DNA from: Patescibacteria group bacterium
GTDB taxonomy: Archaea; Nanobdellota; Nanobdellia; Pacearchaeales; GW2011-AR1
DNA: 64,000 nucleotides
Assembly: GCA_019428815.1 (NCBI GenBank)
Contig: JAHYJW010000002.1
Coordinates: forward strand, 81,186-145,185
Direction: 5' to 3'
Program-made: the position numbers and the translations under genes
In this document: positions 1-57,571 of the stretch, in pieces
Layout: every line of letters begins with the position of its first letter
Position numbering within the stretch: the stretch's first letter is position 1
The notes under the pieces: model-generated
Database searches by the model: none
What the model was told of the DNA's origin: nothing
What the model saw: only the letters and a program-made list of their open reading frames with translations

Positions 1-64
1 AATGGATACTGAAAATAAATTTCAATTTGCATCGAGGAGTTTGGTAATTCCCCCAGGATATTAA
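1..64 (+). CDS. 3' end (window-truncated) of a paralog of the class-III-signal protein encoded at 3711..4481
   Basis: In-frame tail DTENKFQFASRSLVIPPGY*. Nt 5..64 are nearly identical to 4425..4481, and the same MKKAINLNFKQS gene start follows as at 4491. Confidence 0.7.
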   Translation, partial: MDTENKFQFASRSLVIPPGY

Positions 65-81
65 AATGATAAAATAATAAA

Positions 82-3000
82 ATGAAAAAGGCAATAAACT
101 TAAATTTTAAACAAAGCATAATTTTAATTTTAGGAATATTTGTAATAATCTCTTCTTTAAATTTTATTAAAGCTGATCAAGCAGAATTTTATTGTGCTGA
201 AAAAACAATAAATAATGAATGGTGTCAGATGGTGCCAATTGAAGAGGTAGATACTAGTTATAGTTATTCTAGGACTTCTTGTGAGTTTACAGAATATTGT
301 TCAATAGGAACTTGTATCAGCGTTGAATCTGGAAGCTGTCAAACCTCTCCTAAAACATTGTGTAATCCTGAACAAGGCGGCTATTTTAATTCTAGTGAAA
401 TAAACCAAATAGAAGATTGTAAAAAGGGCTGTTGTATCCTCTCAAATGGTGCTAGGATCGTTAGAAAAATACAATGTACTGCTCTCTCAAGACACCTAAA
501 CCTTGTTTATAATTTTATACCAAGTATAAATACTGAGGCAGAATGCTCTGCTCAAGTTGCTTCTTCTAATTTAGGGGCTTGTATAATTGAAACAAATTCC
601 AGAAGAACTTGTTATCATAAAACTGGAGGAGAATGTCAAAGTTCTCAAGGAGAATTTCATGAAGGTTTTTTATGCAGCAATCCTCAATTGGGAACCGGGT
701 GTTTAATGTCAAATAGAACCACCTGTGTTTCTGGAAAGAATGAAGTTTATTTTATGGATTCTTGTGGTAATATTGCAAATGTTTATGACTTTAGTCGAAG
801 AGCTAGTACCCTTTATTGGAGCTATTTTCCAGGTTATGGAAACGTTGAATTAAGTACTGGGGATAACTTAGGGAATATAAGAAACCCCCGTCATGGATAT
901 TGTGATTATACAAAAGGAAGCACCTGCGCAAGGTATGATGTTCTAAAAGATGGGCTTCAGGCCAAACCAGCTTTAGGAAATTATGTCTGTAGAAATTTAA
1001 ACTGCCGCAAGAGTCCTTTAACAGGTAATCTAGAAAGAAAACATGGGGAATCTTGGTGTTCAAAACCACTTGAATATTTTGAAAATGCCAAACCGGGAGA
1101 TGTTTCTTATTTGTTATATTGTTATAATGGAGAGGTAAAATATGAACTCTGTGACCATTATAGAAATAGTTTATGTTATGAAGAAAGAACTGGAACAGGA
1201 GCCAATGCAATAAGTTCTGCAGGTTGTATTCTTAATAAATGGCAAGAATGTTTTGGTCAAGATGAAGAAAGATTTTGTTTAGGATCAGATAAGAAGTGCT
1301 CTGTGGTCCCTACCAATGAATATCCTACCAATGCAAATACGTTTATTCTGACAGAAGATGCAACCAGCAAAGGTATCACTCTTTCCGCAGGAACAGAAGT
1401 TCAGTGTATTCCAAAATACCCCCCGGGATTAAAATTTTGGGAAGCAGAACCAATAATTCCTTCAGCAGTTCTGGATAATTTAAAGAATTTAGAACTTAAT
1501 TCTGAATTAAGTAGTATCTGTGATATCTCAAGTGATGTTTGTAAAGTACAATACTATAGGAAATCTTCAGGATGGTTACCTTGGGGAACTTCAGTAAGGT
1601 GTGAAGGAAATAACTGTTTATGTATAGGGTTAAAGGATGAAGACAGAATCTACAATAATGATCGTGGGAAACAAGAAAACCTTAACAATGATTGGGTTAT
1701 ATACCAAAACGATATTTGTACATTAACCGCAGATTGTGGAGGCTATTCAAATACTAATCCTAATCCCAATTTCTTAGATATTAGCGGTATTTTTCATTTT
1801 TTAGAGTTTGCAGCTTCTAGCGGGCGTGGTGGATGGGGGAAGGTTATGGCCCGTGAAGGATGGTGGGCAAGAAGAGCTCATGGAACTGTAGATTTTACTT
1901 GTAAACCATGGCAACCAATATTAGGGGGTGAGGATTGTTCTAAATGTAATGGGCAACTTTTCCCATGTACGGAATACCAATGTAGAAGTTTAGGTAAGGC
2001 TTGTCAGTTCATCCAAGGGGATAGTGACAATCCCTTATGCATTTATATAGACGATGAAGATGTTATACCCCCAATAATTAATGAAAGAGAGGAATCACTC
2101 ATTGAAGATTATGTTTACAAAGAAATCCATTCTCCAACATCTAGAAAATTAGGGGTAGAAATTGAATATACTCAATCTGAAGATGGGTGTCTTCCTGCAT
2201 TTGAACCATTCTCTTTTGGAATTGAATTGGATAAATTAGGTTATTGTAAATTTGATTATGAACGTACAGAAGATTTCGATGAAATGGAATTCACTTTTGG
2301 GAATGAAGATAGAAATACCTTTGCTTTGAATTATACCCAAACATTTAGTTTACCAGGGGTTAAACATGTTCAAGAAGAATATGAATCAGAAGAGACAGAC
2401 GCTTATGAATATGGCTCACTAGAAGAAATTGAAGAATTTGAGAGTATTATGGAATTAATAAGACCTTCATTGCATTTAAACGGTGAGTATGAGGTTTATG
2501 TAAGATGTAAGTCTCTTAATAATGCTTATAATATCGAAGAATTTATGTTCAAATTCTGTATGGAAGACCAAGACGATATAACCCCCCCAATAATTAGGGG
2601 ATTTGACTGGCAAAATGAATCACCACTTGCCTTTTTTGGAGAAGGTGAAACAAGAAAGATAAACGTTAAAGTTTACATAAATAAACCTTCTCAATGTAAA
2701 TGGAGTTTGGAAGATAAAACTTATGAAAGTATGGAAAATAGTTTAAATTGCCAAGGTGAAGATGAAATTTTTAATAACCATCTTGCGTATTTTTGTGATG
2801 GAGAATTAACAGGACTAGAAAATAATCAAGAAAATGATTTTTATTTCAGATGTAATAGTTCATTTGGAGTTATGAATAGTGAATCTAAAAGACTTACTTT
2901 AATTGGAACAACCCCTCTTGATATAACTTCAATTTCACCAAATGTAACAACTGTAAAAAGTGGCACAAGTCCAGTAACAGTACCTCTTGAAGTTAGAACT

Positions 3001-3495
3001 TATGCAGGATATCAAAATGGAGTTGCAACCTGTCAATACAGCTCTTCAGGAAATCCGGGGACATATTCTACTTTTTCAAATACAAACTCACAACAACACT
3101 CTACAAATTTATATTTAGAAGAAGGAAGTTACGGGTATCACATAAGATGTTATGATAATGCAGGAAATTCAAAAACAGGAGTCGTGTCTTTCAATGTCGA
3201 AACAGATACTTCACCTCCAATAGTTATAAGAGTATACCGTGAAGCAAATAATTTAAAAATTATTACGAACGAAGAAGCAACCTGTGTTTACAGCAATGTA
3301 ATAAACACCGGATGTATGTATAATTTTGAAGATGGACAAACTATGACAAGAACATCTAGTAATAAGATTCATTCTACATCTTGGGATTACAGAAAAATCT
3401 TTTATATAAAGTGTAAAGATGAGTTTGAAAATCAACCTTATGGTGCTGGTTCAGGAGGTTGTAGTATAATTATAAAACCCTTTGAATTTGAATAA
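82..3495 (+). CDS. Giant secreted cysteine-rich surface protein, fused form (N-module paralogous to 4491..6245, C-module paralogous to 6999..8516)
   Basis: 1137-aa ORF. Sec-like signal MKKAINLNFKQSIILILGIFVIISSLNFIKA|DQ. Dense Cys throughout the N half. The C half has four repeated PPI(I/V)...C.(F/W/Y)...Y.(R/K)C modules. No enzymatic motif recognised. Confidence 0.85.
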   Translation: MKKAINLNFKQSIILILGIFVIISSLNFIKADQAEFYCAEKTINNEWCQMVPIEEVDTSYSYSRTSCEFTEYCSIGTCISVESGSCQTSPKTLCNPEQGGYFNSSEINQIEDCKKGCCILSNGARIVRKIQCTALSRHLNLVYNFIPSINTEAECSAQVASSNLGACIIETNSRRTCYHKTGGECQSSQGEFHEGFLCSNPQLGTGCLMSNRTTCVSGKNEVYFMDSCGNIANVYDFSRRASTLYWSYFPGYGNVELSTGDNLGNIRNPRHGYCDYTKGSTCARYDVLKDGLQAKPALGNYVCRNLNCRKSPLTGNLERKHGESWCSKPLEYFENAKPGDVSYLLYCYNGEVKYELCDHYRNSLCYEERTGTGANAISSAGCILNKWQECFGQDEERFCLGSDKKCSVVPTNEYPTNANTFILTEDATSKGITLSAGTEVQCIPKYPPGLKFWEAEPIIPSAVLDNLKNLELNSELSSICDISSDVCKVQYYRKSSGWLPWGTSVRCEGNNCLCIGLKDEDRIYNNDRGKQENLNNDWVIYQNDICTLTADCGGYSNTNPNPNFLDISGIFHFLEFAASSGRGGWGKVMAREGWWARRAHGTVDFTCKPWQPILGGEDCSKCNGQLFPCTEYQCRSLGKACQFIQGDSDNPLCIYIDDEDVIPPIINEREESLIEDYVYKEIHSPTSRKLGVEIEYTQSEDGCLPAFEPFSFGIELDKLGYCKFDYERTEDFDEMEFTFGNEDRNTFALNYTQTFSLPGVKHVQEEYESEETDAYEYGSLEEIEEFESIMELIRPSLHLNGEYEVYVRCKSLNNAYNIEEFMFKFCMEDQDDITPPIIRGFDWQNESPLAFFGEGETRKINVKVYINKPSQCKWSLEDKTYESMENSLNCQGEDEIFNNHLAYFCDGELTGLENNQENDFYFRCNSSFGVMNSESKRLTLIGTTPLDITSISPNVTTVKSGTSPVTVPLEVRTYAGYQNGVATCQYSSSGNPGTYSTFSNTNSQQHSTNLYLEEGSYGYHIRCYDNAGNSKTGVVSFNVETDTSPPIVIRVYREANNLKIITNEEATCVYSNVINTGCMYNFEDGQTMTRTSSNKIHSTSWDYRKIFYIKCKDEFENQPYGAGSGGCSIIIKPFEFE

Positions 3496-3710
3496 TAGGA
3501 TTAAGTTTAGCACAAAAAAATTAATCAGGGGGACTAATAAAAAAGTAAAAAAATTTTAATTCTAACTTGTAGTTTATTTCACTAAAATTTATAAATACTC
3601 CCCTCGTAAAAAAAGGGTATTGGATTATAAAGATTTTAAGATTCAGGTTATACTTAAAAAATTCAATTAAAGAGATGAAAAAGATCAAAAATTGAATCCC
3701 CTTAAAAAAT

Positions 3711-4481
3711 ATGGATTATCATCACATCAAAAATAAAAGAGGCCAAGTAACAATTTTTATTATTATCGCTGTAGTCCTTATAGGGGTAGCTCTTTTATTC
3801 TATTTTTTACTCCCTAAATTTCAAACAAGAATAGTTTTTGATGAAGATAACCCTCAAGATTTTATTCAAATGTGTCTTGAAGAAAAAATAGAAGATACTG
3901 TTAAAACAATTTCTTTACAAGGGGGGAGTATGGAACCAACCCACCATTTTACATATGACGATAAACCAATAGAGTATCTCTGTTTTACTAATGAGAATTA
4001 TAAAACATGTGTAATACAACAACCCTTACTTAGACAACATGTTGAAATTGAAGTTGAAAATGAAATTCAAGGAGATGTTGATATCTGTTTTAGTTCCCTA
4101 AAAGACCACTATGAAAGAAGGGGTTTTGATGTTAAAATGGACCCTGGAAGAACCAGTGTTGAAATTTTGCCCAACAGAATCACAACAAGATTTAATTATG
4201 TTTTAACTGTAACAAAAAGTATAACAGATAGGCACGACTCTTTTAGTATAACTCTTAATAACAATCTTTATGAGAGTATAGAAATAGCTAATAGCATTTT
4301 AGAGTGGGAGGCTATTTATGGAAATGCTGATCCAAGGTCTTATATGTTATTTTATCCAGATATAAGTGTTGAAAAAAATCTTAGGGATGATGGAACTAAA
4401 ATTTATATTATAAGTGAAAGAGATACTGAAAATAAATTTCAATTTGCATCGAGGAGTTTGGTAACTCTTCCCGGATATTAA
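3711..4481 (+). CDS. Prepilin-like (class III signal peptide) protein, function unknown
   Basis: N-terminus MDYHHIKNKRG|QVTIFIIIAVVLIGVALLFYFLL: a basic n-region, then Gly-Gln, then a hydrophobic helix, as in archaeal type IV pilin-like precursors. Soluble Cys-containing domain. A paralog tail sits at 1..64. Confidence 0.55.
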   Translation: MDYHHIKNKRGQVTIFIIIAVVLIGVALLFYFLLPKFQTRIVFDEDNPQDFIQMCLEEKIEDTVKTISLQGGSMEPTHHFTYDDKPIEYLCFTNENYKTCVIQQPLLRQHVEIEVENEIQGDVDICFSSLKDHYERRGFDVKMDPGRTSVEILPNRITTRFNYVLTVTKSITDRHDSFSITLNNNLYESIEIANSILEWEAIYGNADPRSYMLFYPDISVEKNLRDDGTKIYIISERDTENKFQFASRSLVTLPGY

Positions 4482-4490
4482 AATAATAAA

Positions 4491-6245
4491 ATGAAAAAGG
4501 CAATAAACTTAAATTTTAAACAGAGCATTCTTTTAGTAATAGTTTTTTTATTGATTATTCCTTCTTTGAATTTTGTTAAAGCAAACCAAGAAGAACTTTA
4601 TTGTGCTGAAAAAACAAACTGGCCAAATGGGGGAGCTTGGTGTCAAATGGTTCCTCTTGATGAGGTTAATACTAATTATAGATACTCTAGAACATCTTGT
4701 GAATCTACAGAATACTGTTCAGTAGGAACCTGTGTTAATACTTTAACTGGAAAATGTTTACCAGGTCCTCAAGCAACTTGTGACCCTGAAAAGGGAGGGT
4801 ATTTTTATAATAAAGATAAAGATGAAGTTGCAGAATGTAAAATTGGATGTTGTTTTTTAGGCGATGGAGCTGCAATGGTAGAAAGAGTAAAGTGTGATGC
4901 ATTAGGAAGAGAATACAACTTAAATGCAGAATTTAGAGCAGGAATTACAGAGGAATTAGTCTGTCTTGCAATGGCTTCTCCAAAATCAAAGGGTGCTTGC
5001 GTTTTAGGAACAGAGGTAGGTAGAAGTTGTAGTTTTATAACAAGGGAAGAATGCCAAAGTTCTCAAGGAGAATTTCATGAGGATCTTCTATGTACTAATC
5101 CTATTCTTGGAACAGTTTGTGCAATGACACAAAGAACAACCTGTGTCTCTGGGAAAAATGAAGTTTATTTTGTTGATTCTTGTGGGAATATCGCAAATGT
5201 TTATGATGCTAATAAAATAGATGATATTGCATATTGGAGTTATGTCCCAGGTGTTGAAGGTGTGGAAATTGATTGGGGACCAGATTCTAACGCTGGTTCT
5301 AGGATCTTAGGAAGTTGCGATTATCTTCTTGGAAGTACTTGTGCAAGATATGACAGATCAATAGATGGTTCAAATGCGAAACCAGATTATGGGAATTATG
5401 TTTGCAGAGATTTAAGTTGCCCAGAAAGTTCTCTAACTGGAGGAATTAAAAGAGAACACGGAGAGTCTTGGTGTTCAAAACCACTTGAATATTTTGAAAA
5501 TGCCAAACCGGGAGATATTTCTTATTTGTTATATTGCTATAATGGAGAGGTGAAATATGAACTCTGTGATCATTATAGAAATAGTTTATGTTATGAAGAA
5601 AAAGCATCTGATGGAAGAACCACTTATGCTGGTTGTACCCTTAATGAATGGACAGGGTGTATTTTTCAAGATAACACAAGAGATTGTGAAAATCTTAGAG
5701 ATTGTAAAGTTTTAGAAAATGTAGGAGTATTCAGAACAAGTTATGGAACAGAACAATTAATGTTGAATAGTACCTCAGGTGAAATGATAAGAGCTTCTTG
5801 TGTTCCAAAATATTCCCCAGGATTTAAATTTTGGGACCCAACAGGAACAATTCCCTCTTTAAGTTCAGAAAATCCTGGAAGTATCTGTGAACTTTCAAAT
5901 GTTGTTTGTTATGTTCATTACACTCAGGAATTAATTTGGACAAGTGTCTGGAGAGCAGATCCTTTCCCAGAATGTGTTGAGCTATGTAAAAAAGAAGGAG
6001 GAGGAGCGTGGAGTTGTACTAGACAGTGTACCCCTATTTGTTTTGATGGATTTACTGATCAAAGAAGTAATACTAGATTTGATGTTTATGTTGCATTTAA
6101 GTGGGCTAAAAGTTGGCAAAATTTATGCTCTTCTTTAGGAGATTGCGGGGCTGGTTCAAATTATATGGGCACATCGGGATATAACAGTTGGAAAGATTTA
6201 TTCATCCCTGGAAATCATGTTAAATTAGATAATATCCCAGAATAA
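4491..6245 (+). CDS. Secreted cysteine-rich protein, N-module-only paralog of 82..3495
   Basis: 584 aa with about 41 Cys by my count. Signal peptide nearly identical to the one at 82. Long colinear similarity to residues 1..590 of the 1137-aa protein (e.g. HGESWCSKPLEYFENAKPGD(V/I)SYLLYCYNGEVKYELCDHYRNSLCYEE). Confidence 0.85.
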   Translation: MKKAINLNFKQSILLVIVFLLIIPSLNFVKANQEELYCAEKTNWPNGGAWCQMVPLDEVNTNYRYSRTSCESTEYCSVGTCVNTLTGKCLPGPQATCDPEKGGYFYNKDKDEVAECKIGCCFLGDGAAMVERVKCDALGREYNLNAEFRAGITEELVCLAMASPKSKGACVLGTEVGRSCSFITREECQSSQGEFHEDLLCTNPILGTVCAMTQRTTCVSGKNEVYFVDSCGNIANVYDANKIDDIAYWSYVPGVEGVEIDWGPDSNAGSRILGSCDYLLGSTCARYDRSIDGSNAKPDYGNYVCRDLSCPESSLTGGIKREHGESWCSKPLEYFENAKPGDISYLLYCYNGEVKYELCDHYRNSLCYEEKASDGRTTYAGCTLNEWTGCIFQDNTRDCENLRDCKVLENVGVFRTSYGTEQLMLNSTSGEMIRASCVPKYSPGFKFWDPTGTIPSLSSENPGSICELSNVVCYVHYTQELIWTSVWRADPFPECVELCKKEGGGAWSCTRQCTPICFDGFTDQRSNTRFDVYVAFKWAKSWQNLCSSLGDCGAGSNYMGTSGYNSWKDLFIPGNHVKLDNIPE

Positions 6246-6296
6246 AAATTGGATTAAATAAAACAAAATAAAAAATAAAAAAAATAAAAAAAGAAA

Positions 6297-8516
6297 ATGA
6301 TTGAGATAAAGTCTGAAAATAAAAAAGATCATGTTTGGAGCATAAAAAAGAATCTAGCTTTAAATGAAATAATAATTTTAATTCTGAGCATAATTGCCTT
6401 TTCGTATTTAGTTGGAGAAAGCTTGCCTGTTGTAAGTGGAAGTGCAGGGACACCATCGTCTACCCTCGGTACAGAAGATTTTACGAAAGCTATAACAGAA
6501 GTTATAAATGAATCTATAGAGGAATCTAAAACAAATTTAGCTAAAGAAACTTTAGCCATGTCCAAACCTTTTGTACGGACTGAAAAGATAATTCCCCCAA
6601 CAAAATTACAACAGGTGTCAACTATCTCCCCACCATCCCCCGCTTCTAGTGGGGGGATATTTAAGAGTATATGGACGGAACTAACAAAGTCTTTAAAATT
6701 TTCTGATGGAGTGGCAGCGGTTTTTAATACAGCAACTGCTGCTTCAGGCGTAGCCTTTCTTCTGTCTTTCATAGTAGAAACCCTTATTGTAGGAATAACA
6801 ACTGGGGATTGGTCCAGGGCACTTGAAAGTGGAGTCCGAGTAGGTTCTGGTGCAGCGACAGGAGCTTTTCTAGGGTATATGATTGCCGGTCTTGTTGGTG
6901 GTCCCGCAGGCCTAATAGCTGCAGGGGTTAGCGCAATCGGTATATGGTTATTTAATAAATACTTAAAAAGAGATTCAGAAAGACAGGTTTCCTTTTTGTG
7001 TAAACCTTGGCAAGCTCAAATTGGAGGAGAAGAAGATTGTTCTAGATGTAATGACCAACTTTTCCCATGTACAGAATATCAATGTAAAAGTTTTGGGACT
7101 GCTTGTCAGTTAATAAATAAAGACACAAGTGAACCTAGATGTGTTTGGATTGCAGATAGGGACATAAATCCTCCTAGAATAACACCTTTAAGTGATTCAT
7201 TAACAGAAGGATATAATTATGAGCCACTTACTCCTGCTCTAGGAAGCGGAGGGGTTGAAATAACCTATCAAGAGTCAACAGACGGATGTCTTCCTGCATT
7301 CCAACCATTCAGTTTTGGAATTGAATTAGATAGGGAGGGATACTGTAGAATAGAATTTGAGAGAACTGGAAGTTTTGAAGAAATGAAATTTGACTTTGGC
7401 GGAAAAAACCTTTATCAAAAAGAACATACTCAACAAATGACTTTCCCGGGGGTTGTACATTTAGAAGAAGCGATTCAACAAAATGCTCTGAATATAACTG
7501 TTGATTCAAATATTGAGATGTATGTAAGGTGTATGTCAGTTAACGGAATAAAAAATGTTGAAGAATTCTTGTTTAAGTTTTGTATTGATAAAGGGCCAGA
7601 TACAACAGCTCCAATAATTAAGGGATTTAACTGGCGAGATGAAGCTCCAATTGCTTATTTTAAGGAAGGAGATACAAGGGAAGTAGATGTTCAAGTTTAT
7701 GTAAATGAACCGTCTGAATGTAAATGGGACTGGGAAGACAAAGACTACTCAAATATGAACAATGAACTTGACTGCCAATCGAGCATGGTTAATTTTAATG
7801 CACAACTTACTTATGTTTGTTCAGGGAAACTTACAGGACTAGAGAATAATCAAGAAAATGATTTTTATTTCAGATGTAAAGATCAACCTAATTCCCCTGA
7901 AGAAAATAGAAATGTGAACATAGAATCTAAAAAATTAACTTTAATCGGAACCCAACCATTATACATAAATTCTGCAAGCCCTGATTCAATAACCATAAAA
8001 GGATCTACAGATGTTATAAAAGTAACTTTAGAAGCAATAACTTCTGCGGGTTATAGGGAAGGAGAATCTACTTGTTTATATAGTAATACCGGAAATCAAG
8101 GAAGTTATGTATTATTCTCCCAAACAGACTCTCATTCACATTCTACAAATGTATATCTAGAAGAGGGAGATTATGACTTCTTTATCAGATGTATTGATTC
8201 AGCAGGAAATTCAGATACAAAAGAAATAAGTTTTGAGGTAGAAACAGATACTTATTCACCCAGAATAGTAAGAGTTTATTGGGAAACTAGCAATTTGAAA
8301 ATTGTTACAAATGAAGAAGCAGAATGTGTTTATAGTAACTTAGATTGTCAATACCTCTTTGAAGATGGGATTTCTATAAGTAGTGAGGTAAATAAAATAC
8401 TTCACACTCTTCCTTGGAATCCTTCCGAAACATTTTATATCAAATGTAAAGACCAGTTTGATAATAAACCATACCCCAACCAGTGTAGTATTGTTTTAAG
8501 GCCATTTTCTGTTTAG
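6297..8516 (+). CDS. Membrane-anchored protein carrying the C-module of the giant cysteine-rich protein
   Basis: 739 aa. N-terminal TM segment (IIILILSIIAFSYLV), a Gly/Ala-rich hydrophobic region at residues 138..219, then colinear similarity to residues 607..1137 of the 82..3495 product from CKPWQAQIGGEEDCSRCNDQLFPCTEYQC onward. Confidence 0.85.
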   Translation: MIEIKSENKKDHVWSIKKNLALNEIIILILSIIAFSYLVGESLPVVSGSAGTPSSTLGTEDFTKAITEVINESIEESKTNLAKETLAMSKPFVRTEKIIPPTKLQQVSTISPPSPASSGGIFKSIWTELTKSLKFSDGVAAVFNTATAASGVAFLLSFIVETLIVGITTGDWSRALESGVRVGSGAATGAFLGYMIAGLVGGPAGLIAAGVSAIGIWLFNKYLKRDSERQVSFLCKPWQAQIGGEEDCSRCNDQLFPCTEYQCKSFGTACQLINKDTSEPRCVWIADRDINPPRITPLSDSLTEGYNYEPLTPALGSGGVEITYQESTDGCLPAFQPFSFGIELDREGYCRIEFERTGSFEEMKFDFGGKNLYQKEHTQQMTFPGVVHLEEAIQQNALNITVDSNIEMYVRCMSVNGIKNVEEFLFKFCIDKGPDTTAPIIKGFNWRDEAPIAYFKEGDTREVDVQVYVNEPSECKWDWEDKDYSNMNNELDCQSSMVNFNAQLTYVCSGKLTGLENNQENDFYFRCKDQPNSPEENRNVNIESKKLTLIGTQPLYINSASPDSITIKGSTDVIKVTLEAITSAGYREGESTCLYSNTGNQGSYVLFSQTDSHSHSTNVYLEEGDYDFFIRCIDSAGNSDTKEISFEVETDTYSPRIVRVYWETSNLKIVTNEEAECVYSNLDCQYLFEDGISISSEVNKILHTLPWNPSETFYIKCKDQFDNKPYPNQCSIVLRPFSV

Positions 8517-8615
8517 AGTGTTATATCTTCTTTTTTTAGAATTAAAGGAAAGTCTTAAGAAAATATTTAATAAAAATAAAGTAAAGCTTAAATCCTAAAT
8601 GAGATTTTATTTATC

Positions 8616-8933
8616 ATGAACCTCGCTCTTATTCTTCTACTGATTGGGGCAATTGTTTTAACAGCAGGAGATTTATTTATGAAAAAATGGGTAAACACAA
8701 ATACCCAAATTTTTTATTTTGTTGGCTTAGTAGCTTATCTTATTGGATTGAATTTCTTAGCTCAAAGTTTTAAATTCAAGAATATTGCTATTGCTTCTGT
8801 TATGCTTGTAATTTTTAATATAATTATCTTATCTCTTGTAAGTTGGTTTTATTTTAAAGAAACTTTATCTCCATTACAAATAGCAGGAATAATATTAGGA
8901 ATAATTGCGGTAATTTTTTTAGAACTATCATAA
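8616..8933 (+). CDS. Small 4-TM membrane protein, SMR/EamA-half-like (possible lipid-linked sugar or small-molecule transporter)
   Basis: 105 aa with four hydrophobic helices. Size and topology resemble the SMR/ArnE-type family. No diagnostic catalytic residue confirmed. Confidence 0.45.
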   Translation: MNLALILLLIGAIVLTAGDLFMKKWVNTNTQIFYFVGLVAYLIGLNFLAQSFKFKNIAIASVMLVIFNIIILSLVSWFYFKETLSPLQIAGIILGIIAVIFLELS

Positions 8934-9060
8934 ATGACCTTGCCCCAAATAAAAGTTATAATTTCTTAAAGATAATAAAAAACGATTATTTGATATTCTC
9001 GTAGGCATGATTAAACCGAGAATAAGATAAATTAATAAACTTATTTTAAGATATTAATTT

Positions 9061-9549
9061 ATGGAAAAAGGAGGGCAGATGAATATCTCATTTGGGATGA
9101 TTTTCTCAGTGATTTTAGTTATTGTTTTTCTAACTGTTGCTTTTTATGCAATAAGGACGTTTCTTAAAATGCAAGAGAATGTTTCTATAGGAATTTTTTT
9201 AGAGGATTTACAAGAAGATGTAAACAATTTATGGCATGCGGAAGGCTCTCAAGAAAGAGAATATTCGCTTCCTTCGAAGATAAGATATATTTGTTTTGTT
9301 GATAATACTCAAGAACCCCAAGGAAGATATCAATCTTTTTTTGAAGATGTTTCTTTTGCAGCACAATCAACAAATAATCTTGCCTTTTATCCTCTTAGGT
9401 CTTCTGATATTGAATCTGTCGAAATAAAGAACATAAATTTAGAATCAATTATCTCTCAGGGTAATCCATATTGTATAGAAAATGTTAAGGGTGAGGTTAA
9501 ATTAACTTTAATAAAAGGGATTAGTGAAGCTTTAGTAAGAATAGAATAA
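9061..9549 (+). CDS. Prepilin-like (class III signal) protein
   Basis: MEKGG|QMNISFGMIFSVILVIVFLTVAFYAI followed by a soluble domain with 2 Cys. Confidence 0.5.
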   Translation: MEKGGQMNISFGMIFSVILVIVFLTVAFYAIRTFLKMQENVSIGIFLEDLQEDVNNLWHAEGSQEREYSLPSKIRYICFVDNTQEPQGRYQSFFEDVSFAAQSTNNLAFYPLRSSDIESVEIKNINLESIISQGNPYCIENVKGEVKLTLIKGISEALVRIE

Positions 9550-9681
9550 AGAGCTTTAATAGGATTAAATTAGATAAAATACATAAGTTAGTACTTAATC
9601 CCAAAGATAATTTAAAAAACTTTAAGATTTTTGGATTTAAGGATTTTAATAAAAAAATCTTAAAAATTAAAGATTAAAAAA

Positions 9682-10635
9682 ATGTTAAAAAATAAGAAAG
9701 GTATTGAAATTTCTTTTTCTTGGCTTTTTGCAATAATTGTAGGGGCTTTTATTATCTTTTTAGCGATTTATGGTTCTATTAGAGTTTTAAATATGGGAAG
9801 AGAATTAACAAGTGCTGAGACTAGTGCTGAGATTGGGGTTTTATTGAATCCCTTAGAAACTGGTTTTGAAAGTGGGAGAGTTACCCTCTTAAAGATGCCA
9901 AAAGAAACTAGGATTCAAAATAGGTGTGAAAGTGAGGGGAGTTTTGGAAGACAGGGAATAGTGGTTTCACAAAAAAGTTTTGGAGAATGGGCAAAGGCAG
10001 ATATTGATGTTGGTTTTTTTAACAAATATCTGTTTTCTGATTATAATCTTGAAGGTAAAGAATTTTATATTTTTTCAAAACCCTTTGAATTCCCCTTTAA
10101 AGTTTCTGATATTGTTTATATTACCTCCTCAGAAGATAAGTACTGTTTTATTGAATCTACTTCTTTTCCAGACAGAATAAAAGAAGAATTAAATGATTTA
10201 AATCAAGGGAATATCTACATAGGTAGAGAAAATTGTCCAGAAGGTAGTATAAATGTCTGTTTTAATTCATATAATCCAAGTATGAATTGTGATATCAAAG
10301 TTGATTACGGAGGTAAAACTGTTGAGAAGGACAATGAATTAATGTATTTTATAACAGACTCTTTAATGTACGGAGCTATCTTTTCAGAACCTTTAATTTA
10401 TGAATGTCAGATAAAAAGGCTGATGAAAAGGGCAGAAAAACTTTCAGGATTATATCAAAATAAATTAAATAGGCTTATACAAGAAGGATGTTTCATTAAT
10501 TTTGAGCTTTCTTCTTTTAGTTCAATGTTATCTAATATCGAAAGTTCAGAAGAGCTTATTGGGGCATTTATTGAATCAGAAAGAATCAATGAGGGGAATA
10601 GAAGGTCTATTGGCTCTAGATGTGAGTTATGGTAG
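9682..10635 (+). CDS. Prepilin-like (class III signal) protein, larger Cys-rich ectodomain
   Basis: MLKNKKG|IEISFSWLFAIIVGAFIIFLAIYG. About 10 Cys in the 317-aa product. Confidence 0.55.
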   Translation: MLKNKKGIEISFSWLFAIIVGAFIIFLAIYGSIRVLNMGRELTSAETSAEIGVLLNPLETGFESGRVTLLKMPKETRIQNRCESEGSFGRQGIVVSQKSFGEWAKADIDVGFFNKYLFSDYNLEGKEFYIFSKPFEFPFKVSDIVYITSSEDKYCFIESTSFPDRIKEELNDLNQGNIYIGRENCPEGSINVCFNSYNPSMNCDIKVDYGGKTVEKDNELMYFITDSLMYGAIFSEPLIYECQIKRLMKRAEKLSGLYQNKLNRLIQEGCFINFELSSFSSMLSNIESSEELIGAFIESERINEGNRRSIGSRCELW

Positions 10636-10702
10636 TGAAGAATTAGAGATTAAATATGAAAATTTAAGTTAATAAAATAAAAAACAAAGGATAAGAAACC
10701 AG

Positions 10703-11266
10703 ATGAAACATAATAAAAACAGAAAAATAGCAAATAGGGGTACTAAAGGTCAAATGAAGCTTCAACAAATGGCTTTTATGATGATTGGGGTTACAATTTT
10801 CTTCCTTTTTGTGGGTTTATTTTTTGCTAGGATAATTTTTTCTAATGTCCAAAAGGCAGCAGAAGAAATCAAAGAGAGAGATGCATTACTATTAGTTTCA
10901 AAATTAGCAAATTCCCCAGAATTCTCTTGTGGGGAATCTTTTGGTACATTTAAAATAAACTGTATTGATGGGGATAAATTAATAGCATTAATTGATAATA
11001 TAGAAGATTATCGTATTCAAGGAGCTAATTTCTGGAAAGTAGATGGAATAACAGTGAGAAAAATATACCCCCAAGACTCATCTTATCAGGGTTTTGAATG
11101 TAGCCCTGAAAATTATCCAGAATGTAGCGAGTTTAAAGTTTTAGACCCTCAAGATAAAGGAATTGGGGTTTCTAATTTTGTTGCTTTATGTAGAAAAGAA
11201 CAAAAAGAGGGTCTTGTCCAGAATAAATGTGAAATTGCTAAGATATTTGTTTATTATGAATCATAA
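10703..11266 (+). CDS. Prepilin-like (class III signal) protein
   Basis: Basic n-region ...NRGTKG|QMKLQQMAFMMIGVTIFFLFVGLFF. About 7 Cys in the ectodomain. Confidence 0.5.
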   Translation: MKHNKNRKIANRGTKGQMKLQQMAFMMIGVTIFFLFVGLFFARIIFSNVQKAAEEIKERDALLLVSKLANSPEFSCGESFGTFKINCIDGDKLIALIDNIEDYRIQGANFWKVDGITVRKIYPQDSSYQGFECSPENYPECSEFKVLDPQDKGIGVSNFVALCRKEQKEGLVQNKCEIAKIFVYYES

Positions 11267-11314
11267 ACTAAAAAAATGAAATTAAAGATATAAATTAACT
11301 AAATATTATTAAAA

Positions 11315-11824
11315 ATGTTAAAAATTAAGCAAAAAAAAGCTCAAGAAGAGATGTTAGGGTTTGCTTTGATAGTTATCATTGTATCAATTGCAATTATCTT
11401 TCTTTTGTTTCTTTTTTTGAGAAGCGATAGTAAACAAGGGGTAGAGAGTTATGAGGTGAATAGTTTTATCCAAACTTCTTTACATTATACGACAGAATGT
11501 AAGGAATATTCTGGTTATGTGGATGTTAGAAAACTTATTTTTAAATGTGTAAGGAATGAACATTGTCAGGGGGGTGAAGATCCTTGTGAAATGTTAAATG
11601 ATACTCTTAGAGGGATAATTGAAAAAAGTTGGCCCTATGGAGAAAATAGACCAATTAAAGGTTATTTTATGAACATTTTAGACATTGTTAGTACTGATGA
11701 AACTAGTTCTAGGAGTATAGTAGACTTAAAAGGGGGAAATGAGACAAATAATTACAAGGGATCTTCTCAGGATTTTACAGTTGTTCCTTACTCAATAAGG
11801 ATTTATTTTAGGACTTATTACTGA
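11315..11824 (+). CDS. Prepilin-like (class III signal) protein
   Basis: MLKIKQKKA|QEEMLGFALIVIIVSIAIIFLLFLF. Ectodomain with 5 Cys. Confidence 0.5.
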   Translation: MLKIKQKKAQEEMLGFALIVIIVSIAIIFLLFLFLRSDSKQGVESYEVNSFIQTSLHYTTECKEYSGYVDVRKLIFKCVRNEHCQGGEDPCEMLNDTLRGIIEKSWPYGENRPIKGYFMNILDIVSTDETSSRSIVDLKGGNETNNYKGSSQDFTVVPYSIRIYFRTYY

Positions 11825-11947: not shown

Positions 11948-12301
11948 TTAGACCTTTACTTCAATGATAATTGAATCTACTGCTATTACTGGTTTATGGC
12001 GTATTCTCTTTTTGGTTTTTTCTTGTATTAGTTCTATAAACCCAAACCTTTCAAAAAGCTTAATGTCATCACTTACAGACTTAAAACTACGGCCTGTTTT
12101 TCTAGCTAGATCGTAAATTGACCCGGGTTTTTGATTCTTTATAACATTCAAAAGCCTAGCTTTTTCATTGCTAAGTAGATGTCTTAAAGCAGAAATTCCT
12201 TCAAAATCATAATCTTTTTTGGAAAAACCTGCTTTTTTAAAAACTGAGAAGGTTCCTTTTGATTGAAGTATAGTTATTTCTCTTGTTTTAGTCTTTGGCA
12301 T
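11948..12301 (-). CDS. Small winged-helix DNA-binding protein (putative transcriptional regulator)
   Basis: 117 aa. The stretch ARLLNVIKNQKPGSIYDLARKTGRSFKSVSDDIKLFERFGFIE is a typical wHTH recognition region. Transcribed divergently from the S-layer-like gene. Confidence 0.6.
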   Translation of the reverse strand: MPKTKTREITILQSKGTFSVFKKAGFSKKDYDFEGISALRHLLSNEKARLLNVIKNQKPGSIYDLARKTGRSFKSVSDDIKLFERFGFIELIQEKTKKRIRHKPVIAVDSIIIEVKV

Positions 12302-12597: not shown

Positions 12598-12964
12598 ATT
12601 TTTTGTGTTTAAGATAAACACCATAGAGTGTATCAATTAGAGACGATGGATGATTAAATTGATACAGATAAAGAAAAAGTTAAGAGGGTTTTATTTGAGG
12701 TTATTTATGGTGTTCTAATAGGGGATTGTAAAAAACATAAAAGATAAAACAATCAAAGTAAAATATCTAATATCAAAATGTTAAAAAAAATATTCCAAAA
12801 AGATTTTTCATTTGTAAGAAATTCTGAAGATTGTAATCCGTATAATAAATCTCACAATTCATATTCACCCAATTTAGTGGTCTTACCCTATGGCTACTTA
12901 GATGGTGAAAACTGTCATAGGCAGTATATTCATAGAGTTGAAAGGAGGTTTAAAAAAAATAAAT

Positions 12965-15464: not shown

Positions 15465-16058
15465 ATGGAAAAAATTAAAAGACTGGTTTCAAAAAATCAA
15501 AGAAAGAAAAAAAATAGGCAAAATCAAACATGGATAGGTGTTTTATTAATGATGATAATGTTTTTAAGTGTTCTAGGATTTGCACTACAATATAACCCCG
15601 ATGATAACTCTCAGAATAATGAAGATTTTTTAACTTACAATGGTTTTAAGTTTGTTCATTCAAATGGGTTTTGGATTCTTGACAATTTTGTTTTTTCTTA
15701 TAATCCTTCAGAAGTTCCAGATATTGGGAGTGGGCTAAGGGACGCTACGTATTATGCTGAACAACCATTGTATATATTTTCGGAAAATGAGGAATCTACT
15801 ATAGAGGTAATAATGAATTTAAGACAGATTGTCCAAAGATATCAAGAAGCTTGCCCTGCAGAGAATGTTTTAAATGAAAGTGTTCAATGTCTTGAAGATG
15901 TTCCTTTTAAGAGTTGTTCAGAAAATTTTATAATAATTCGAGAAGGAATGAATAATTCAATTTTTCAGGAAGAAGGATGTGTCTATATAACAGGTCCTAA
16001 AGAAGAATTATTAAAGTTAACAGACCAATTCTTATTTAAAATCTTAACAATAAAGTAA
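15465..16058 (+). CDS. Membrane-anchored hypothetical protein
   Basis: Basic N-terminus, one TM segment (WIGVLLMMIMFLSVLGFAL), and an ectodomain whose C-terminal part resembles that of the next gene. Confidence 0.6.
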   Translation: MEKIKRLVSKNQRKKKNRQNQTWIGVLLMMIMFLSVLGFALQYNPDDNSQNNEDFLTYNGFKFVHSNGFWILDNFVFSYNPSEVPDIGSGLRDATYYAEQPLYIFSENEESTIEVIMNLRQIVQRYQEACPAENVLNESVQCLEDVPFKSCSENFIIIREGMNNSIFQEEGCVYITGPKEELLKLTDQFLFKILTIK

Positions 16059-16919: not shown

Positions 16920-17531
16920 TTAATTTTTCTTCTTTTTAGTTTTAGAAAGGCTAAACAATTTTTTTAAGTCCGAATAGAAGGGAATTTCAGTTATCTTAAA
17001 GATCTTTACTTCAACAAACCATATTCCCACAACAAATAAAGTGCTTACCGCATACCATAAAAATTGATGGGTTACATCAAAGAATGCTGATTCAGTGTAC
17101 GCTAAAAAAGATAAAAGGACAATTCTGAGGATATTAATAACTAGGAATATACCAAAGGAAAAGAAAATTGCAGAAAGTCTCTTTTTAAACTTTAAACCAG
17201 GAGTAGATAAGTTTAGTACAAGTAATAGATAATAAGCAGAACCTGCAATACATGCAGGAATCAGTTCTATGGGAAAAATATGTCCTAATATCAAGATTGT
17301 TTCAGAAAAGAGAATCACGTCAAAAAATAATTTTAAAATAAGGTAAACTGGATAAACAGTAAGTGGTGTAAAAATAAAATAAAATATAAAAAGCCCAGGG
17401 GTTCCAGCCAATACAAGGATTAAGTATCTTGACATCAAATCAAAAACATTAAGAGGGAAAGATTTATTTTCGGATCTCTTATTTAAAGAGGATTTCTTAG
17501 AATTAATAGGCCCCCTTTTTTTCCTTACCAT
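16920..17531 (-). CDS. Exosortase/archaeosortase-family transpeptidase, short DPANN-type (pacearchaeosortase-like)
   Basis: 203-aa polytopic protein. It has the family's ordered Cys / Asn-x-x-Arg / His signature: IPACIAGSAYY ... LVINILRIVLL ... VTHQFLWYAVS. Confidence 0.6.
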   Translation of the reverse strand: MVRKKRGPINSKKSSLNKRSENKSFPLNVFDLMSRYLILVLAGTPGLFIFYFIFTPLTVYPVYLILKLFFDVILFSETILILGHIFPIELIPACIAGSAYYLLLVLNLSTPGLKFKKRLSAIFFSFGIFLVINILRIVLLSFLAYTESAFFDVTHQFLWYAVSTLFVVGIWFVEVKIFKITEIPFYSDLKKLFSLSKTKKKKN

Positions 17532-54450: not shown

Positions 54451-54495
54451 GACCTTAACAAAGATTTTAAAAGGTTTTTTCCTTAATTTTTAGAA

Positions 54496-57504: not shown

Positions 57505-57571
57505 ATAAACTATAATTAGAATCCTTTTTCACAATCTTTAAAATAGCTGCTTTTTTAGGAGATTTATAAAA

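What the first reader, a model, noticed from the sequence alone, without database searches (positions are those of the whole stretch)
1..11824. Candidate undescribed surface/attachment apparatus: duplicated prepilin-like plus giant cysteine-rich protein modules followed by four more prepilin-like genes
Eleven same-strand genes with short spacers form one block. The order is: prepilin-like fragment (1..64), 1137-aa Cys-rich secreted protein, prepilin-like protein (3711), 584-aa Cys-rich protein, 739-aa membrane-anchored partner, small SMR-like membrane protein, then four prepilin-like proteins (9061, 9682, 10703, 11315). Five N-termini fit the archaeal class III (prepilin) signal layout, a basic n-region followed by G/A, Q or I, and a hydrophobic helix: KRG|QVTIF, GG|QMNISF, KKG|IEISF, KG|QMKLQQMAF, KA|QEEMLGF. 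The large proteins carry Sec-type signals, about 7% Cys (about 41 in 584 aa by my count), and no enzymatic motif I can recognise. All ectodomains in the block contain Cys, which implies a disulfide-stabilised extracellular structure. No pilus ATPase, platform protein or prepilin peptidase is in the window, so this is not a canonical complete type IV pilus operon. My inference is a pilus-like fibre that presents or anchors large adhesins, plausibly used by an episymbiotic small-genome archaeon to contact a host.
Basis: partly seen in the sequence, partly recalled or inferred. Interest (0 to 1): 0.85.

Follow-up and report, generated by a model that had tools for sequence, protein, structure and literature searches.

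The report
Conserved pilin-like plus giant-protein surface cluster
A tiny-genome archaeon (Pacearchaeota) carries, next to its S-layer gene, an uncharacterised gene set conserved in at least 84 related loci (most of them species-representative genomes): five pilin-like proteins and giant cysteine-rich surface proteins that most likely form a pilus-related attachment structure.

Summary
Bases 1-11824 carry the tail of one gene plus nine same-strand ORFs at the stated coordinates. The 1137-aa protein is a fusion-type paralogue of the 584-aa plus 739-aa pair.

The block is not chance. In 84 related loci from Pacearchaeota/Woesearchaeota the order is [256-aa protein, giant N-part, giant C-part] x1-3, then four small genes A-B-C-D, then a reverse-strand wHTH gene, then the S-layer gene.

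All five small families share a conserved N-terminus, N-K-[KR]-[G/A/S]|Q followed by a hydrophobic helix. This is a class III (prepilin) layout of the Methanococcus EppA kind. None matches any Pfam, NCBIfam or PDB family.

The giants have about 60-70 largely invariant cysteines. Their C-halves are tandem Ig/FN3-like arrays, as in large adhesins.

No pilus ATPase, platform or peptidase lies in the window or within 10 kb of any related locus.

Best reading (0.45): the pilin and adhesin half of a type-IV-filament system whose motor is encoded elsewhere. Main rival (0.25): a membrane-to-S-layer envelope scaffold.

I rate it a new variant of a known kind. It is undescribed and widespread, so it is interesting, but its function is unproven.

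The parts
1..64 (+). 3' end of the accessory-module pilin-like gene (257-aa paralogue of the 256-aa protein; P0206)
   Evidence: Bases 2-64 translate to MDTENKFQFASRSLVIPPGY*, identical to the C-terminus of P0206, which lies on the same 147,171-bp contig.
82..3495 (+). Accessory giant protein, 1137 aa. Fused type: Sec signal, Cys-rich N-domain (about 35-495), a linker that is disordered in the model and has no predicted membrane segment, and a C-domain (about 598-1137) of tandem Ig/FN3-like beta-sandwiches. 60 Cys.
   Evidence: 53% identity to the 584-aa protein over residues 1-491 and 50% to residues 225-737 of the 739-aa protein. AF2 mean pLDDT 79. Foldseek finds only Ig/FN3 arrays. Only the N-terminal signal is hydrophobic enough for a membrane segment. 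127 homologues, all unnamed.
3711..4481 (+). Core pilin-like adaptor 'PL256' (256 aa): class-III-like N-terminus KRG|QVTIFIIIA, then an alpha/beta globular domain with 4 invariant Cys and a conserved C-terminal FASRSxxxPPGY.
   Evidence: Q12 is invariant and G11 is at least 90% conserved in 51 homologues. The -1 position is G/A/S in 98% and +1 is Q in 99% of 110 copies. A giant N-domain gene follows in 96 of 98 evaluable copies. AF2 pLDDT 88.6, with no PDB fold match at E<=1e-3. The profile finds 512 clusters at E<=1e-30.
4491..6245 (+). Core giant protein, N-part (584 aa): Sec signal plus a Cys-rich domain (41 Cys, 7.0%), secreted.
   Evidence: The split architecture next to A-B-C-D is seen in 51 of 52 loci.
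6297..8516 (+). Core giant protein, C-part (739 aa): Sec/SPase I-type signal (NEIIILILSIIAFSY...PVVSG), an 80-aa Ser/Thr/Pro linker, a Gly/Ala-rich cluster of 2-4 membrane segments (about 128-212), then an Ig-like array (225-739; 21 Cys).
   Evidence: Weak Big_13, DUF4625 and Y_Y_Y hits. Most homologues carry a central hydrophobic cluster.
9061..9549 (+). Pilin-like protein A (162 aa): KGG|QMNISFGMIFS..., 2 conserved Cys.
   Evidence: Orthologues sit in the same position in 35 loci. -1 is G/A/S in 98%, +1 is Q in 83%, and S+5 and G+7 are invariant.
9682..10635 (+). Pilin-like protein B (317 aa, the largest): KKG|IEISFSWLFAII..., 8 Cys, C-terminal C-x-LW.
   Evidence: 1598 homologues, all unnamed and where labelled from Pacearchaeota or Nanoarchaeota. 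-1 is G/A in 96%. The N-terminal 78 columns are homologous to family A (hhalign probability 96.5%). No PDB relative.
10703..11266 (+). Pilin-like protein C (187 aa): TKG|QMKLQQMAFMM..., 6 Cys.
   Evidence: Q+1, K+3 and Q+5 are invariant and -1 is G/A/S in 98% of 39 orthologues.
11315..11824 (+). Pilin-like protein D (169 aa): KKA|QEEMLGFALIV..., 4 invariant Cys.
   Evidence: Q+1, E+3, G+6 and F+7 are invariant and -1 is A/G/S in 98% of 38 orthologues. Its N-terminal 113 columns resemble PL256 (hhalign probability 89%).
11948..12301 (-). Conserved neighbour: winged-helix regulator of the HVO_A0114 family.
   Evidence: Pfam PF25212, E=2e-16. It follows gene D on the opposite strand in 34 loci.
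12902..15292 (+). Conserved neighbour: S-layer protein (S_layer_C), with a signal peptide and no membrane anchor of its own.
   Evidence: Pfam PF05124, 32.4 bits against a cut-off of 23.9. It follows the wHTH gene in 30 loci. The sequence ends without a hydrophobic segment.

Best explanation
The block is the structural half (pilin-like subunits plus adhesin-like giants) of a type-IV-filament (TFF) related surface apparatus. It is characteristic of Pacearchaeota/Woesearchaeota. Its assembly genes (prepilin peptidase, ATPase, platform) would lie elsewhere in the genome.

Shown:
- Seven core genes are kept together in a fixed order: PL256, giant N-part, giant C-part, A, B, C, D.
- The five small proteins share only an N-terminal module: a basic stretch, G/A/S, Q (in four of the five families), then a hydrophobic helix.
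- Each PL256 gene is tightly coupled to one giant gene.
- The giants are exported, rich in conserved cysteines (presumably disulfide-bonded), and end in an Ig-like array.

Inferred:
- A PibD/EppA-type peptidase cuts before the Q.
- The freed hydrophobic helices of A-D bundle into a short filament or priming/tip complex, by analogy with bacterial minor pilins (GspH-K, or FimU/PilVWX).
- PL256 is the adaptor pilin that docks one giant protein onto this complex, much as minor pilins carry PilY1.
- The core giant is rooted in the membrane by its Gly/Ala-rich segments.
- The extra, fast-evolving fused copies (here the 1137-aa protein) supply alternative binding surfaces displayed at or beyond the S-layer, for attachment to a host cell or a surface.
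For: Motif:
- N-K-[KR]-[G/A/S]|Q is conserved across orthologues of all five families.
- hhalign similarity among the families is confined to the N-terminal 40-110 residues, as in pilins.
- The motif is confined to this block within the 64-kb window.

Synteny:
- PL256 is followed by a giant N-domain in 96 of 98 copies.
- A-B-C-D directly follows a module in 35 loci.
- There is one PL256 per giant but a single A-B-C-D set whatever the number of modules.
- Spacers between PL256 and the giant are 9 and 17 nt here. In L002-L004 they are 1-4 nt or the genes overlap.

Giants:
- They carry Sec signals and invariant cysteines.
- The C-domain is an Ig/FN3 array matching adhesins such as SiiE, MpIBP and GhpA at fold level.
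- Accessory copies diverge much faster (30-57% identity) than core copies (50-79%) or the pilin-like genes (50-64%).

Precedent from the literature:
- Archaeal clade-1/Epd loci hold at least 5 minor pilins plus two large adhesin-like proteins (PMC4858521).
- Major pilins and pilin sets are often encoded away from the motor (PMC6098224).
- TFF system 1 and subsystem 4A, and FlaI/FlaJ/FlaK-like genes, are reported in some DPANN, Nanoarchaeota and Woesearchaeota.

From my own knowledge: Q at +1 typifies EppA substrates in Methanococcus maripaludis.
Against: - No match to any pilin family: Pfam Class_IIIsignal, Pilin_N and archaellin models, NCBIfam and PDB profiles.
- The confident PL256 model has no pilin-like or any other PDB neighbour. 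Its membrane helix is separated from the globular domain by a low-confidence loop.
- Families A-D have 4-7 partly polar residues between the putative cut site and the hydrophobic core. By my manual check they fail the strict FlaFind-type pattern as I remember it.
- No TFF ATPase (Walker A motif search) or GxGD peptidase (motif search) lies within 10 kb in any of 84 loci or in the window; no platform protein showed up among the window ORFs scanned against Pfam, and the related loci were not searched for one.
- One paper states that type IV pilus components are missing in DPANN genomes.
- The high conservation and broad distribution of the small proteins, and their fixed place beside the S-layer gene, are unusual for minor pilins and fit a housekeeping envelope role.
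- No major pilin candidate was identified.
Confidence: 0.45

Rival explanations
1. Envelope scaffold. The pilin-like proteins stay in the membrane, cleaved or not. Together with the bipartite giant protein they form a fixed complex that spans the pseudo-periplasm and anchors or organises the S-layer. No extended filament is built. The accessory fused copies are surface decorations.
For: - In all 30 loci that reach that far, the cluster is followed by the wHTH gene and then the S-layer gene.
- The island continues with two small anchored proteins, pacearchaeosortase and a PACE-CTERM putative S-layer protein.
- The S_layer_C protein has no membrane anchor of its own, while the core giant C-part has a cluster of membrane segments.
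- The core set was found in at least 179 species-representative genomes and is well conserved, like a housekeeping component.
- No motor genes lie nearby.
- Precedent from my own knowledge: the pilin-like archaellum protein FlaF/ArlF binds the S-layer.
Against: - Five different families sharing one processing-type motif is the signature of pilin sets, not of simple anchors.
- The variable number and fast divergence of the accessory modules suggest interaction with changing external partners.
- No direct evidence links these proteins to the S-layer protein.
Confidence: 0.25
2. Ordinary surface proteins. The small proteins are type II signal-anchor proteins with no pilin-type processing, and the block is just a co-located set of lineage-specific envelope proteins.
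For: No hit to any pilin family or fold. A-D fail the strict FlaFind-type pattern by my manual check. No peptidase is seen in the window or nearby.
Against: A simple anchor does not explain the near-invariant small residue at -1 in five otherwise unrelated families, with Q at +1 in four of them, together with N-terminal-only homology. It also does not explain a fixed gene order kept at 30-60% identity across 84 loci.
Confidence: 0.15
3. Type-II-secretion-like pseudopilus. A-D and PL256 form a piston or short pseudopilus that pushes the giant proteins through the S-layer, so the giants are cargo rather than tip components.
For: Five pilin-like genes of graded size (about 160, 310, 180, 165 and 250 aa) recall GspG-K. 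The giants carry Sec signals, so they would need a second step to pass the S-layer. One PL256 gene pairs with each giant.
Against: No ATPase or platform lies nearby. Archaea are not known to have T2SS-type secretion. The core giant is itself membrane-rooted, which fits poorly with being cargo.
Confidence: 0.08
4. Host-membrane contact or penetration device. The Gly/Ala-rich hydrophobic segments between the two ectodomains insert into a partner cell's membrane as a pore or fusion element, with the pilin-like proteins forming the stalk.
For: The central region is a glycine-zipper-like run of amphipathic hydrophobic segments ending in one strong membrane helix. The A2 profile gives a chance-level hit of this region to the type III secretion translocator AopB (E=0.66). 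Cultivated DPANN depend on hosts (literature seen).
Against: The AopB hit is not significant. The accessory copy in this window lacks the segment entirely. The simplest reading is an ordinary membrane anchor in the cell's own membrane. Nothing here shows a host.
Confidence: 0.07

Closest known systems
Archaeal TFF system 1 / clade-1 (Epd) pili of Methanococcus maripaludis and relatives
   Same: Both have several different class-III-signal pilin-like genes in a row (at least 5 minor pilins) together with two large adhesin-like proteins. In both, the major pilin and some pilins are encoded away from the motor (PMC4858521; PMC6098224; preprint 10.64898/2026.04.22.720090). From my own knowledge, both have a basic-G|Q cleavage-site layout.
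   Different: No ATPase, TadC pair or EppA in or near the locus. No DUF361/Class_IIIsignal or DUF2341 match. The giants are Cys-rich, bipartite and carry a central membrane cluster. The locus is fixed next to the S-layer gene.
Bacterial minor-pilin sets with a large tip adhesin (FimU-PilVWX-PilY1; T2SS GspH-I-J-K)
   Same: In both, four to five distinct low-copy pilin-like proteins that share only the N-terminal helix are encoded together with a non-pilin, Sec-exported protein of more than 1000 aa. The proposed logic is the same: a priming/tip complex that carries an adhesin. This is an analogy drawn from established knowledge.
   Different: No sequence or fold similarity was detected. The cleavage motif is G/A/S|Q rather than G|F-x-x-x-E. 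There is no beta-propeller or vWA domain. The host domain is archaeal and the envelope has an S-layer.
Giant Ig-array adhesins (SiiE, MpIBP, GhpA grappling-hook protein)
   Same: The C-domain of the giant proteins is a tandem beta-sandwich array that Foldseek aligns to these at probability 1.0.
   Different: TM-scores are low (<=0.4), which is generic repeat similarity. These adhesins have no Cys-rich N-domain, no central membrane cluster and no pilin-like partners. They are secreted by T1SS or other routes.
arCOG02884-type membrane-associated S-layer-like proteins with an Ig-like domain (predicted archaeal secretion/envelope complex, Makarova 2015)
   Same: Both combine 2-4 membrane segments with an extracellular Ig-like region and are encoded with S-layer-like proteins (PMC5898192).
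   Different: No pfam07760/DUF1616 hit was found. The partner genes differ: there is no MoxR ATPase, vWA protein or arCOG01314 here.

Membership tests
Archaeal type IV pilin-like proteins (class III signal peptide) | Short basic n-region, a small residue (G/A/S) at -1, and the cut site N-terminal to the hydrophobic helix | tested here: met
   The -1 position is G/A/S in 96-98% of copies in all five families. The -2 and -3 positions are mostly K/R. The +1 position is Q in 83-100% of four families.
Archaeal type IV pilin-like proteins (class III signal peptide) | Strict FlaFind-type pattern, [KRDE][GA][ALIFQMVED][ILMVTAS]x3, with the hydrophobic stretch starting at +1 to +2 | tested here: inconclusive
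   I checked the sequences by hand against the pattern as I remember it. PL256 (RGQVTI) fits. A, B, C and D have polar residues at +2 to +6 and do not fit. The program itself was not available.
Archaeal type IV pilin-like proteins (class III signal peptide) | Match to curated pilin or archaellin models (Pfam Class_IIIsignal/DUF361, Pilin_N, Arch_flagellin; NCBIfam) | tested here: not met
   None appears at E<=1 for the window proteins or at E<=10 among the families listed (all 19 for C, the top 25 of 56 for D) across 27 and 35 orthologues.
Archaeal type IV pilin-like proteins (class III signal peptide) | Pilin fold: a long N-terminal helix whose C-half packs on a beta-sheet | tested here: inconclusive
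   Only PL256 could be modelled (pLDDT 88.6). It shows helix 10-33, a low-confidence loop, then an alpha/beta domain. No pilin appears among the Foldseek PDB hits, and none has E<=1e-3.
Archaeal type IV pilin-like proteins (class III signal peptide) | Processing by a PibD/FlaK/EppA peptidase and assembly by a PilB/FlaI ATPase and a PilC/FlaJ platform encoded in the same genome | not testable with these tools
   No ATPase or GxGD-peptidase motif was found in the 64-kb window or within 10 kb of 84 related loci, and no platform protein among the window ORFs scanned against Pfam; the related loci were not searched for a platform. The rest of the genomes could not be read. The literature conflicts.
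PilY1 / DUF2341-type pilus tip adhesins | DUF2341 or PilY1 beta-propeller domain | tested here: not met
   No such Pfam hit in the window giants or in 7 homologues. Foldseek's listed top hits are almost all Ig/FN3-type beta-sandwich arrays and include no propeller.
Ig-like / FN3 array surface proteins | Tandem beta-sandwich domains in an exported protein | tested here: met
   The AF2 C-domain (598-1137) is all-beta at pLDDT about 85-95. 462 PDB matches have E<=1e-3, and the listed top 50 are almost all Ig/FN3-type beta-sandwich arrays. There are sub-threshold Big_13, DUF4625 and Y_Y_Y hits.
SMR / EamA small membrane transporters (the 105-aa ORF) | Score above the curated family cut-off | tested here: inconclusive
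   EamA scores 27.5 bits against a cut-off of 28.2. Multi_Drug_Res scores 19.1 against 23.7. NCBIfam SMR models score about 20 bits against cut-offs above 100. Its four hydrophobic helices fit the fold.
Archaeal S-layer protein (S_layer_C) for 12902-15292 | Pfam PF05124 above the gathering score | tested here: met
   32.4 bits against 23.9, E=8.9e-8.

The most novel reading that the evidence does not exclude
Pacearchaeota and Woesearchaeota build a lineage-defining envelope machine that uses pilin-type subunits without a classical type IV pilus motor. Five processed pilin-like proteins form a membrane-rooted stalk. The stalk carries a bipartite, presumably disulfide-locked giant protein through the S-layer. 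Interchangeable fast-evolving giant-plus-adaptor cassettes would set host specificity. The glycine-zipper segment might engage the partner's membrane.
Probability: 0.2. Interest if true: 0.85.

Novelty: new variant of a known kind. Interest (0 to 1): 0.6.

Why it matters
Pacearchaeota and Woesearchaeota are among the most abundant uncultured archaea in groundwater, sediments and lakes. How they hold on to other cells or surfaces is unknown, and published surveys disagree on whether they have pili at all.

This cluster gives seven concrete, conserved, unannotated gene families. One has more than 1,500 sequence clusters at 90% identity, and another more than 500 clusters at 50% identity. They can be used as markers and as targets for metaproteomics, antibodies or tomography. 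The cluster also gives a testable model: a constant core plus variable giant-protein cassettes.

If the pilin reading is right, it extends type-IV-filament biology to a very divergent pilin set with a new partner protein. If instead the genomes lack the motor, it would be a new way of using pilin-like subunits.

Tried and rejected
- Known families. Pfam and NCBIfam scans of all nine proteins gave nothing above cut-off. Pfam scans of 27 and 35 orthologues of families C and D at E<=10 gave only scattered membrane-helix noise. Seven giant homologues gave only weak Ig-like hits.
- PDB by sequence. The 1137-aa protein alone and profiles of five families gave no significant hit.
- Folds. PL256 has no neighbour. 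The giant finds only generic Ig/FN3 arrays in PDB and in viral models, with nothing specific to the N-domain.
- Haem or redox role. Rejected: there are no CxxCH motifs and almost no CxxC motifs in the giants.
- Mobile element or provirus. Rejected: composition is the same as the rest of the window. The locus sits between PCNA and the S-layer gene in distant genomes.
- Frameshift artefact for the 584/739 split. Rejected: the split recurs in 51 of 52 loci, and the C-part has its own signal peptide.
- Class III signal on the giants. Rejected: they have n-h-c signals ending in P-x-V-S-A, the SPase I type.
- Reading upstream of base 1. Look-ups of the window's own proteins and of P0206 found no record.
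- Pilus motor or peptidase near the cluster. Motif scans of 84 loci plus the window found none.
- One large alignment job failed and was repeated with fewer sequences.

Full report
WHAT IS THERE

Spacers between them are 9-215 nt.

The 20-residue fragment at bases 2-64 is identical to the C-terminus of P0206. P0206 is a 257-aa protein, 60% identical to the 256-aa protein, and lies on the same 147,171-bp contig.

The 1137-aa protein aligns over residues 1-491 with the 584-aa protein (53% identity). Over residues 597-1134 it aligns with residues 225-737 of the 739-aa protein (50%). So the block contains two paralogous modules:
- a pilin-like gene plus a fused giant;
- a pilin-like gene plus the same giant split into an N-part and a C-part.

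The rest of the window is plainly archaeal and, specifically, from Pacearchaeota:
- FtsZ, archaeal L10/P0, L1, L3/L4, AglB and glycosyltransferases;
- an S_layer_C protein;
- pacearchaeosortase with its PACE-CTERM substrate.

THE BLOCK IS A CONSERVED UNIT, NOT A COINCIDENCE

Homologues of the giant protein (127), the 256-aa protein (538) and the 317-aa protein (1598) are all unnamed. Where labelled, they come from Pacearchaeota, Woesearchaeota or Nanoarchaeota metagenome genomes. A profile of the 256-aa family finds 512 clusters (50% identity level) at E<=1e-30 among 1.84 billion representatives.

I collected four contexts by exact-protein look-up. I collected 80 more from species-representative genomes and mapped all window proteins onto them. 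The recurring order is:

[PL256 - giant N-domain - giant C-domain] x1-3, then A(162) - B(317) - C(187) - D(169), then an HVO_A0114-type wHTH gene on the opposite strand, then the S-layer gene.

The counts are as follows:
- A giant N-domain follows PL256 in 96 of 98 evaluable copies.
- A-B-C-D directly follows a module in 35 loci. 34 of these continue with the wHTH gene and 30 with the S-layer gene. Most of the other loci end too early to tell; a few show insertions or a different continuation (L001, L002).
- The SMR/EamA-like ORF at 8616-8933 is in none of them.
- Where loci reach further, the island continues with the two small anchored proteins and pacearchaeosortase, as in the window.

A RULE FOR THE MODULES

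The module next to A-B-C-D is split in 51 of 52 loci. Extra upstream modules are fused in 28 of 31.

C-domains of split copies are most similar to split copies of other genomes (52 of 54), and fused to fused (23 of 30). These are therefore two old paralogue classes:
- a well-conserved core, 50-79% identity between genomes;
- a fast-diverging accessory class, about 30-57%.

The window's 1137-aa copy is one of the few exceptions. It is closest to its own split copy, so it looks like a more recent duplicate in which the two parts were joined and the membrane linker lost.

THE SMALL PROTEINS

Alignments of orthologues show the same N-terminal layout in all five families: N-K-[KR]-[G/A/S] followed by Q, then a hydrophobic helix. 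The Q frequency is 99% in PL256, 83% in A, 100% in C and 100% in D. Family B instead has F, Y, A, Q, L or I at +1.

Each family has its own invariant continuation:
- PL256: QVTIF
- A: Q-x-x-L-S-F-G-M-I-F-S
- B: x-E/Q-I-S-F-x-W-L-F-A
- C: Q-M-K-I-Q-Q-M-A-F-M
- D: Q-E-E-M-V-G-F

Profile-profile comparison finds similarity between families mainly in the N-terminal 40-110 residues (A-B probability 96.5%; D-PL256 89%; the one alignment lying elsewhere, B-PL256, is weak at 41%). That is the pattern of pilin sets.

Within the other 52 kb of the window no real N-terminus has this motif; the only other match was an internal Met inside the 48888-50330 ORF, which I take to be SecY. All ectodomains have conserved, even numbers of cysteines.

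Against a simple filing as pilins:
- No Pfam or NCBIfam pilin model matches.
- No PDB pilin is found by profile.
- The confident model of PL256 (pLDDT 88.6) has no structural neighbour at all.
- A-D have a few polar residues between the putative cut and the hydrophobic core, so by my manual check only PL256 fits the strict FlaFind-type pattern as I remember it.

THE GIANT PROTEINS

Forty-five homologues share 55 invariant columns, most of them Cys. Typical members have 62-70 cysteines.

They start with ordinary Sec/SPase I signals. A conserved form, F-E-I-x-L-L-I...A-F-A-Y...P-x-V-S-A, is shared by most of the fused giants examined and by the C-parts of split copies; some fused giants, including the window's 1137-aa protein, and the N-parts of split copies have a different Sec signal.

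The N-domain (about 460 aa, about 40 Cys) is modelled with good confidence but matches nothing known. The C-domain (about 540 aa) is an all-beta array. It aligns only with generic Ig/FN3 tandem arrays: receptor ectodomains, the adhesins SiiE and MpIBP, the GhpA grappling hook, and phage fibre decorations. Pfam hits to Big_13, DUF4625 and Y_Y_Y are sub-threshold.

Between the domains most homologues have a hydrophilic linker. After it comes a Gly/Ala-rich run of 2-4 hydrophobic segments ending in one very strong membrane helix. The window's 739-aa C-part has this run; the 1137-aa copy does not.

Both ectodomains are Cys-rich, and they are directly joined in the copies that lack the membrane segments. 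I therefore infer both are outside the cell, which requires an even number of membrane passes. This topology is not shown.

There are no haem motifs.

WHAT IS MISSING

No type-IV-filament ATPase, platform or prepilin peptidase is in the window (Pfam scans; motif scans). No ATPase or peptidase motif lies within 10 kb of the cluster in 84 related loci; those loci were not searched for a platform protein. I could not read the rest of any genome.

The literature conflicts:
- One groundwater study says type IV pilus components are missing from DPANN genomes.
- A comparative study annotates FlaI/FlaJ/FlaK-like genes in Nanoarchaeota and Woesearchaeota.
- A 2026 preprint places TFF system 1 and subsystem 4A in some DPANN.
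- Makarova et al. noted TFF ATPases in nanoarchaea whose cognate pilins could not be found.

MOST LIKELY MECHANISM (confidence 0.45)

The cluster is the structural half of a TFF-related apparatus. The five proteins are cut before Q by a PibD/EppA-type peptidase encoded elsewhere. A-D bundle through their freed helices into a short filament or priming/tip complex. PL256, always paired one-to-one and almost contiguous with a giant gene, is the adaptor that docks a giant protein. The core giant is rooted in the membrane. Accessory fused copies provide variable binding surfaces at or beyond the S-layer.

The steps that are shown are the conserved motif, the N-terminal-only homology, the gene coupling, the export signals, the Ig-array fold and the unequal divergence rates. 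Cleavage, polymerisation, docking and adhesion are inferred.

The closest precedent is the Methanococcus-type (clade 1, Epd) system, with at least five minor pilins and two large adhesin-like proteins. The bacterial counterpart is minor pilins plus PilY1. From my own knowledge, Q at +1 is the hallmark of EppA substrates.

RIVALS

- A membrane-to-S-layer scaffold (0.25). This is favoured by the invariable S-layer neighbourhood, the anchor-less S-layer protein, the membrane-rooted core giant, and the breadth and conservation of the core set.
- Plain signal-anchor surface proteins (0.15).
- A secretion pseudopilus (0.08).
- A host-membrane contact device using the glycine-zipper segment (0.07). 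Its only sequence hint is a non-significant match to the translocator AopB.

NOVELTY

I found no description of these families in Pfam, NCBIfam (which does hold Pacearchaeota-specific models) or the papers searched. A DPANN dark-matter family listed as a secreted protein encoded next to S-layer-like proteins (cls.004306) may overlap with one of them, but I could not check this.

In kind, a set of pilin-like genes with large adhesin-like partners is known. The families, the bipartite Cys-rich giant, the core/accessory cassette rule and the fixed link to the S-layer gene are new. I rate it a new variant of a known kind, interest 0.6.

Noticed in passing
window 16920-17531 (-) and 17813-19675 (-): Pacearchaeosortase (NF033505, 213 bits) lies next to its PACE-CTERM putative S-layer protein (NF033506, 391 bits). 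The latter ends in a membrane helix plus a basic tail. Together with the S_layer_C gene, this makes the first 20 kb of the window one cell-envelope island.
   Followed up: partly
window 1-64 and the source contig: The upstream gene (P0206) is named in NCBI as K0A97_01460 from a 'Patescibacteria group bacterium'. The contig's genes are archaeal and Pacearchaeota-specific, so the public record appears to be mislabelled or mis-binned.
   Followed up: partly
window 8616-8933 (+): A 105-aa four-helix membrane protein with sub-threshold EamA/SMR similarity sits between the giant C-part and gene A. It is absent at this position, and anywhere else, in all 84 related loci, so it is probably a recent insertion unrelated to the cluster.
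   Followed up: yes
window 15465-16058 and 16060-16893 (+): Two small N-terminally anchored proteins with no family match follow the S-layer gene. The first recurs after the S-layer gene in L005, L029, L043, L059 and L074. Both, followed by pacearchaeosortase, recur in L059.
   Followed up: partly
window 82-3495 versus 4491-8516: Unlike most fused accessory giants, which group with fused copies of other genomes, this window's fused copy is closest to its own split copy (50%). This suggests a recent duplication with fusion and loss of the membrane linker, or gene conversion.
   Followed up: partly
window 6297-6440; L003:12498, L004:12500, P0003, P0006, P0066: Giant proteins and split C-parts share an unusually conserved Sec signal peptide, F-E-I-x-L-L-I...A-F-A-Y...P-x-V-S-A. 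Signal peptides are normally not conserved, so this may mark a dedicated targeting or retention step.
   Followed up: no
L001 (JGI Ga0247841_10000007) and L002 (JAVZZP010000001.1): In these more distant genomes the PL256-plus-giant modules are present, but A-B-C-D and the S-layer gene do not follow. tRNA synthetase or other genes follow instead. The link between the modules and A-D is therefore not universal. In L001 a ParE/MazE-like pair sits between two modules, and in L004 an NTP-transferase/HepT pair sits between the module and gene A.
   Followed up: no
window 53443-62000 (+): An N-glycosylation cluster: GT4-family phosphotransferase, a 1002-aa AglB/STT3, three GT1/GT4 glycosyltransferases and UDP-GlcNAc 2-epimerase. 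Yet the giant proteins have few N-x-S/T sequons (6 in 1137 aa).
   Followed up: no
alignment A2, profile positions 527-696: The central Gly/Ala-rich hydrophobic region of the giant family gives a chance-level hit (E=0.66) to the type III secretion translocator AopB. It is not significant and is recorded only as a lead.
   Followed up: no
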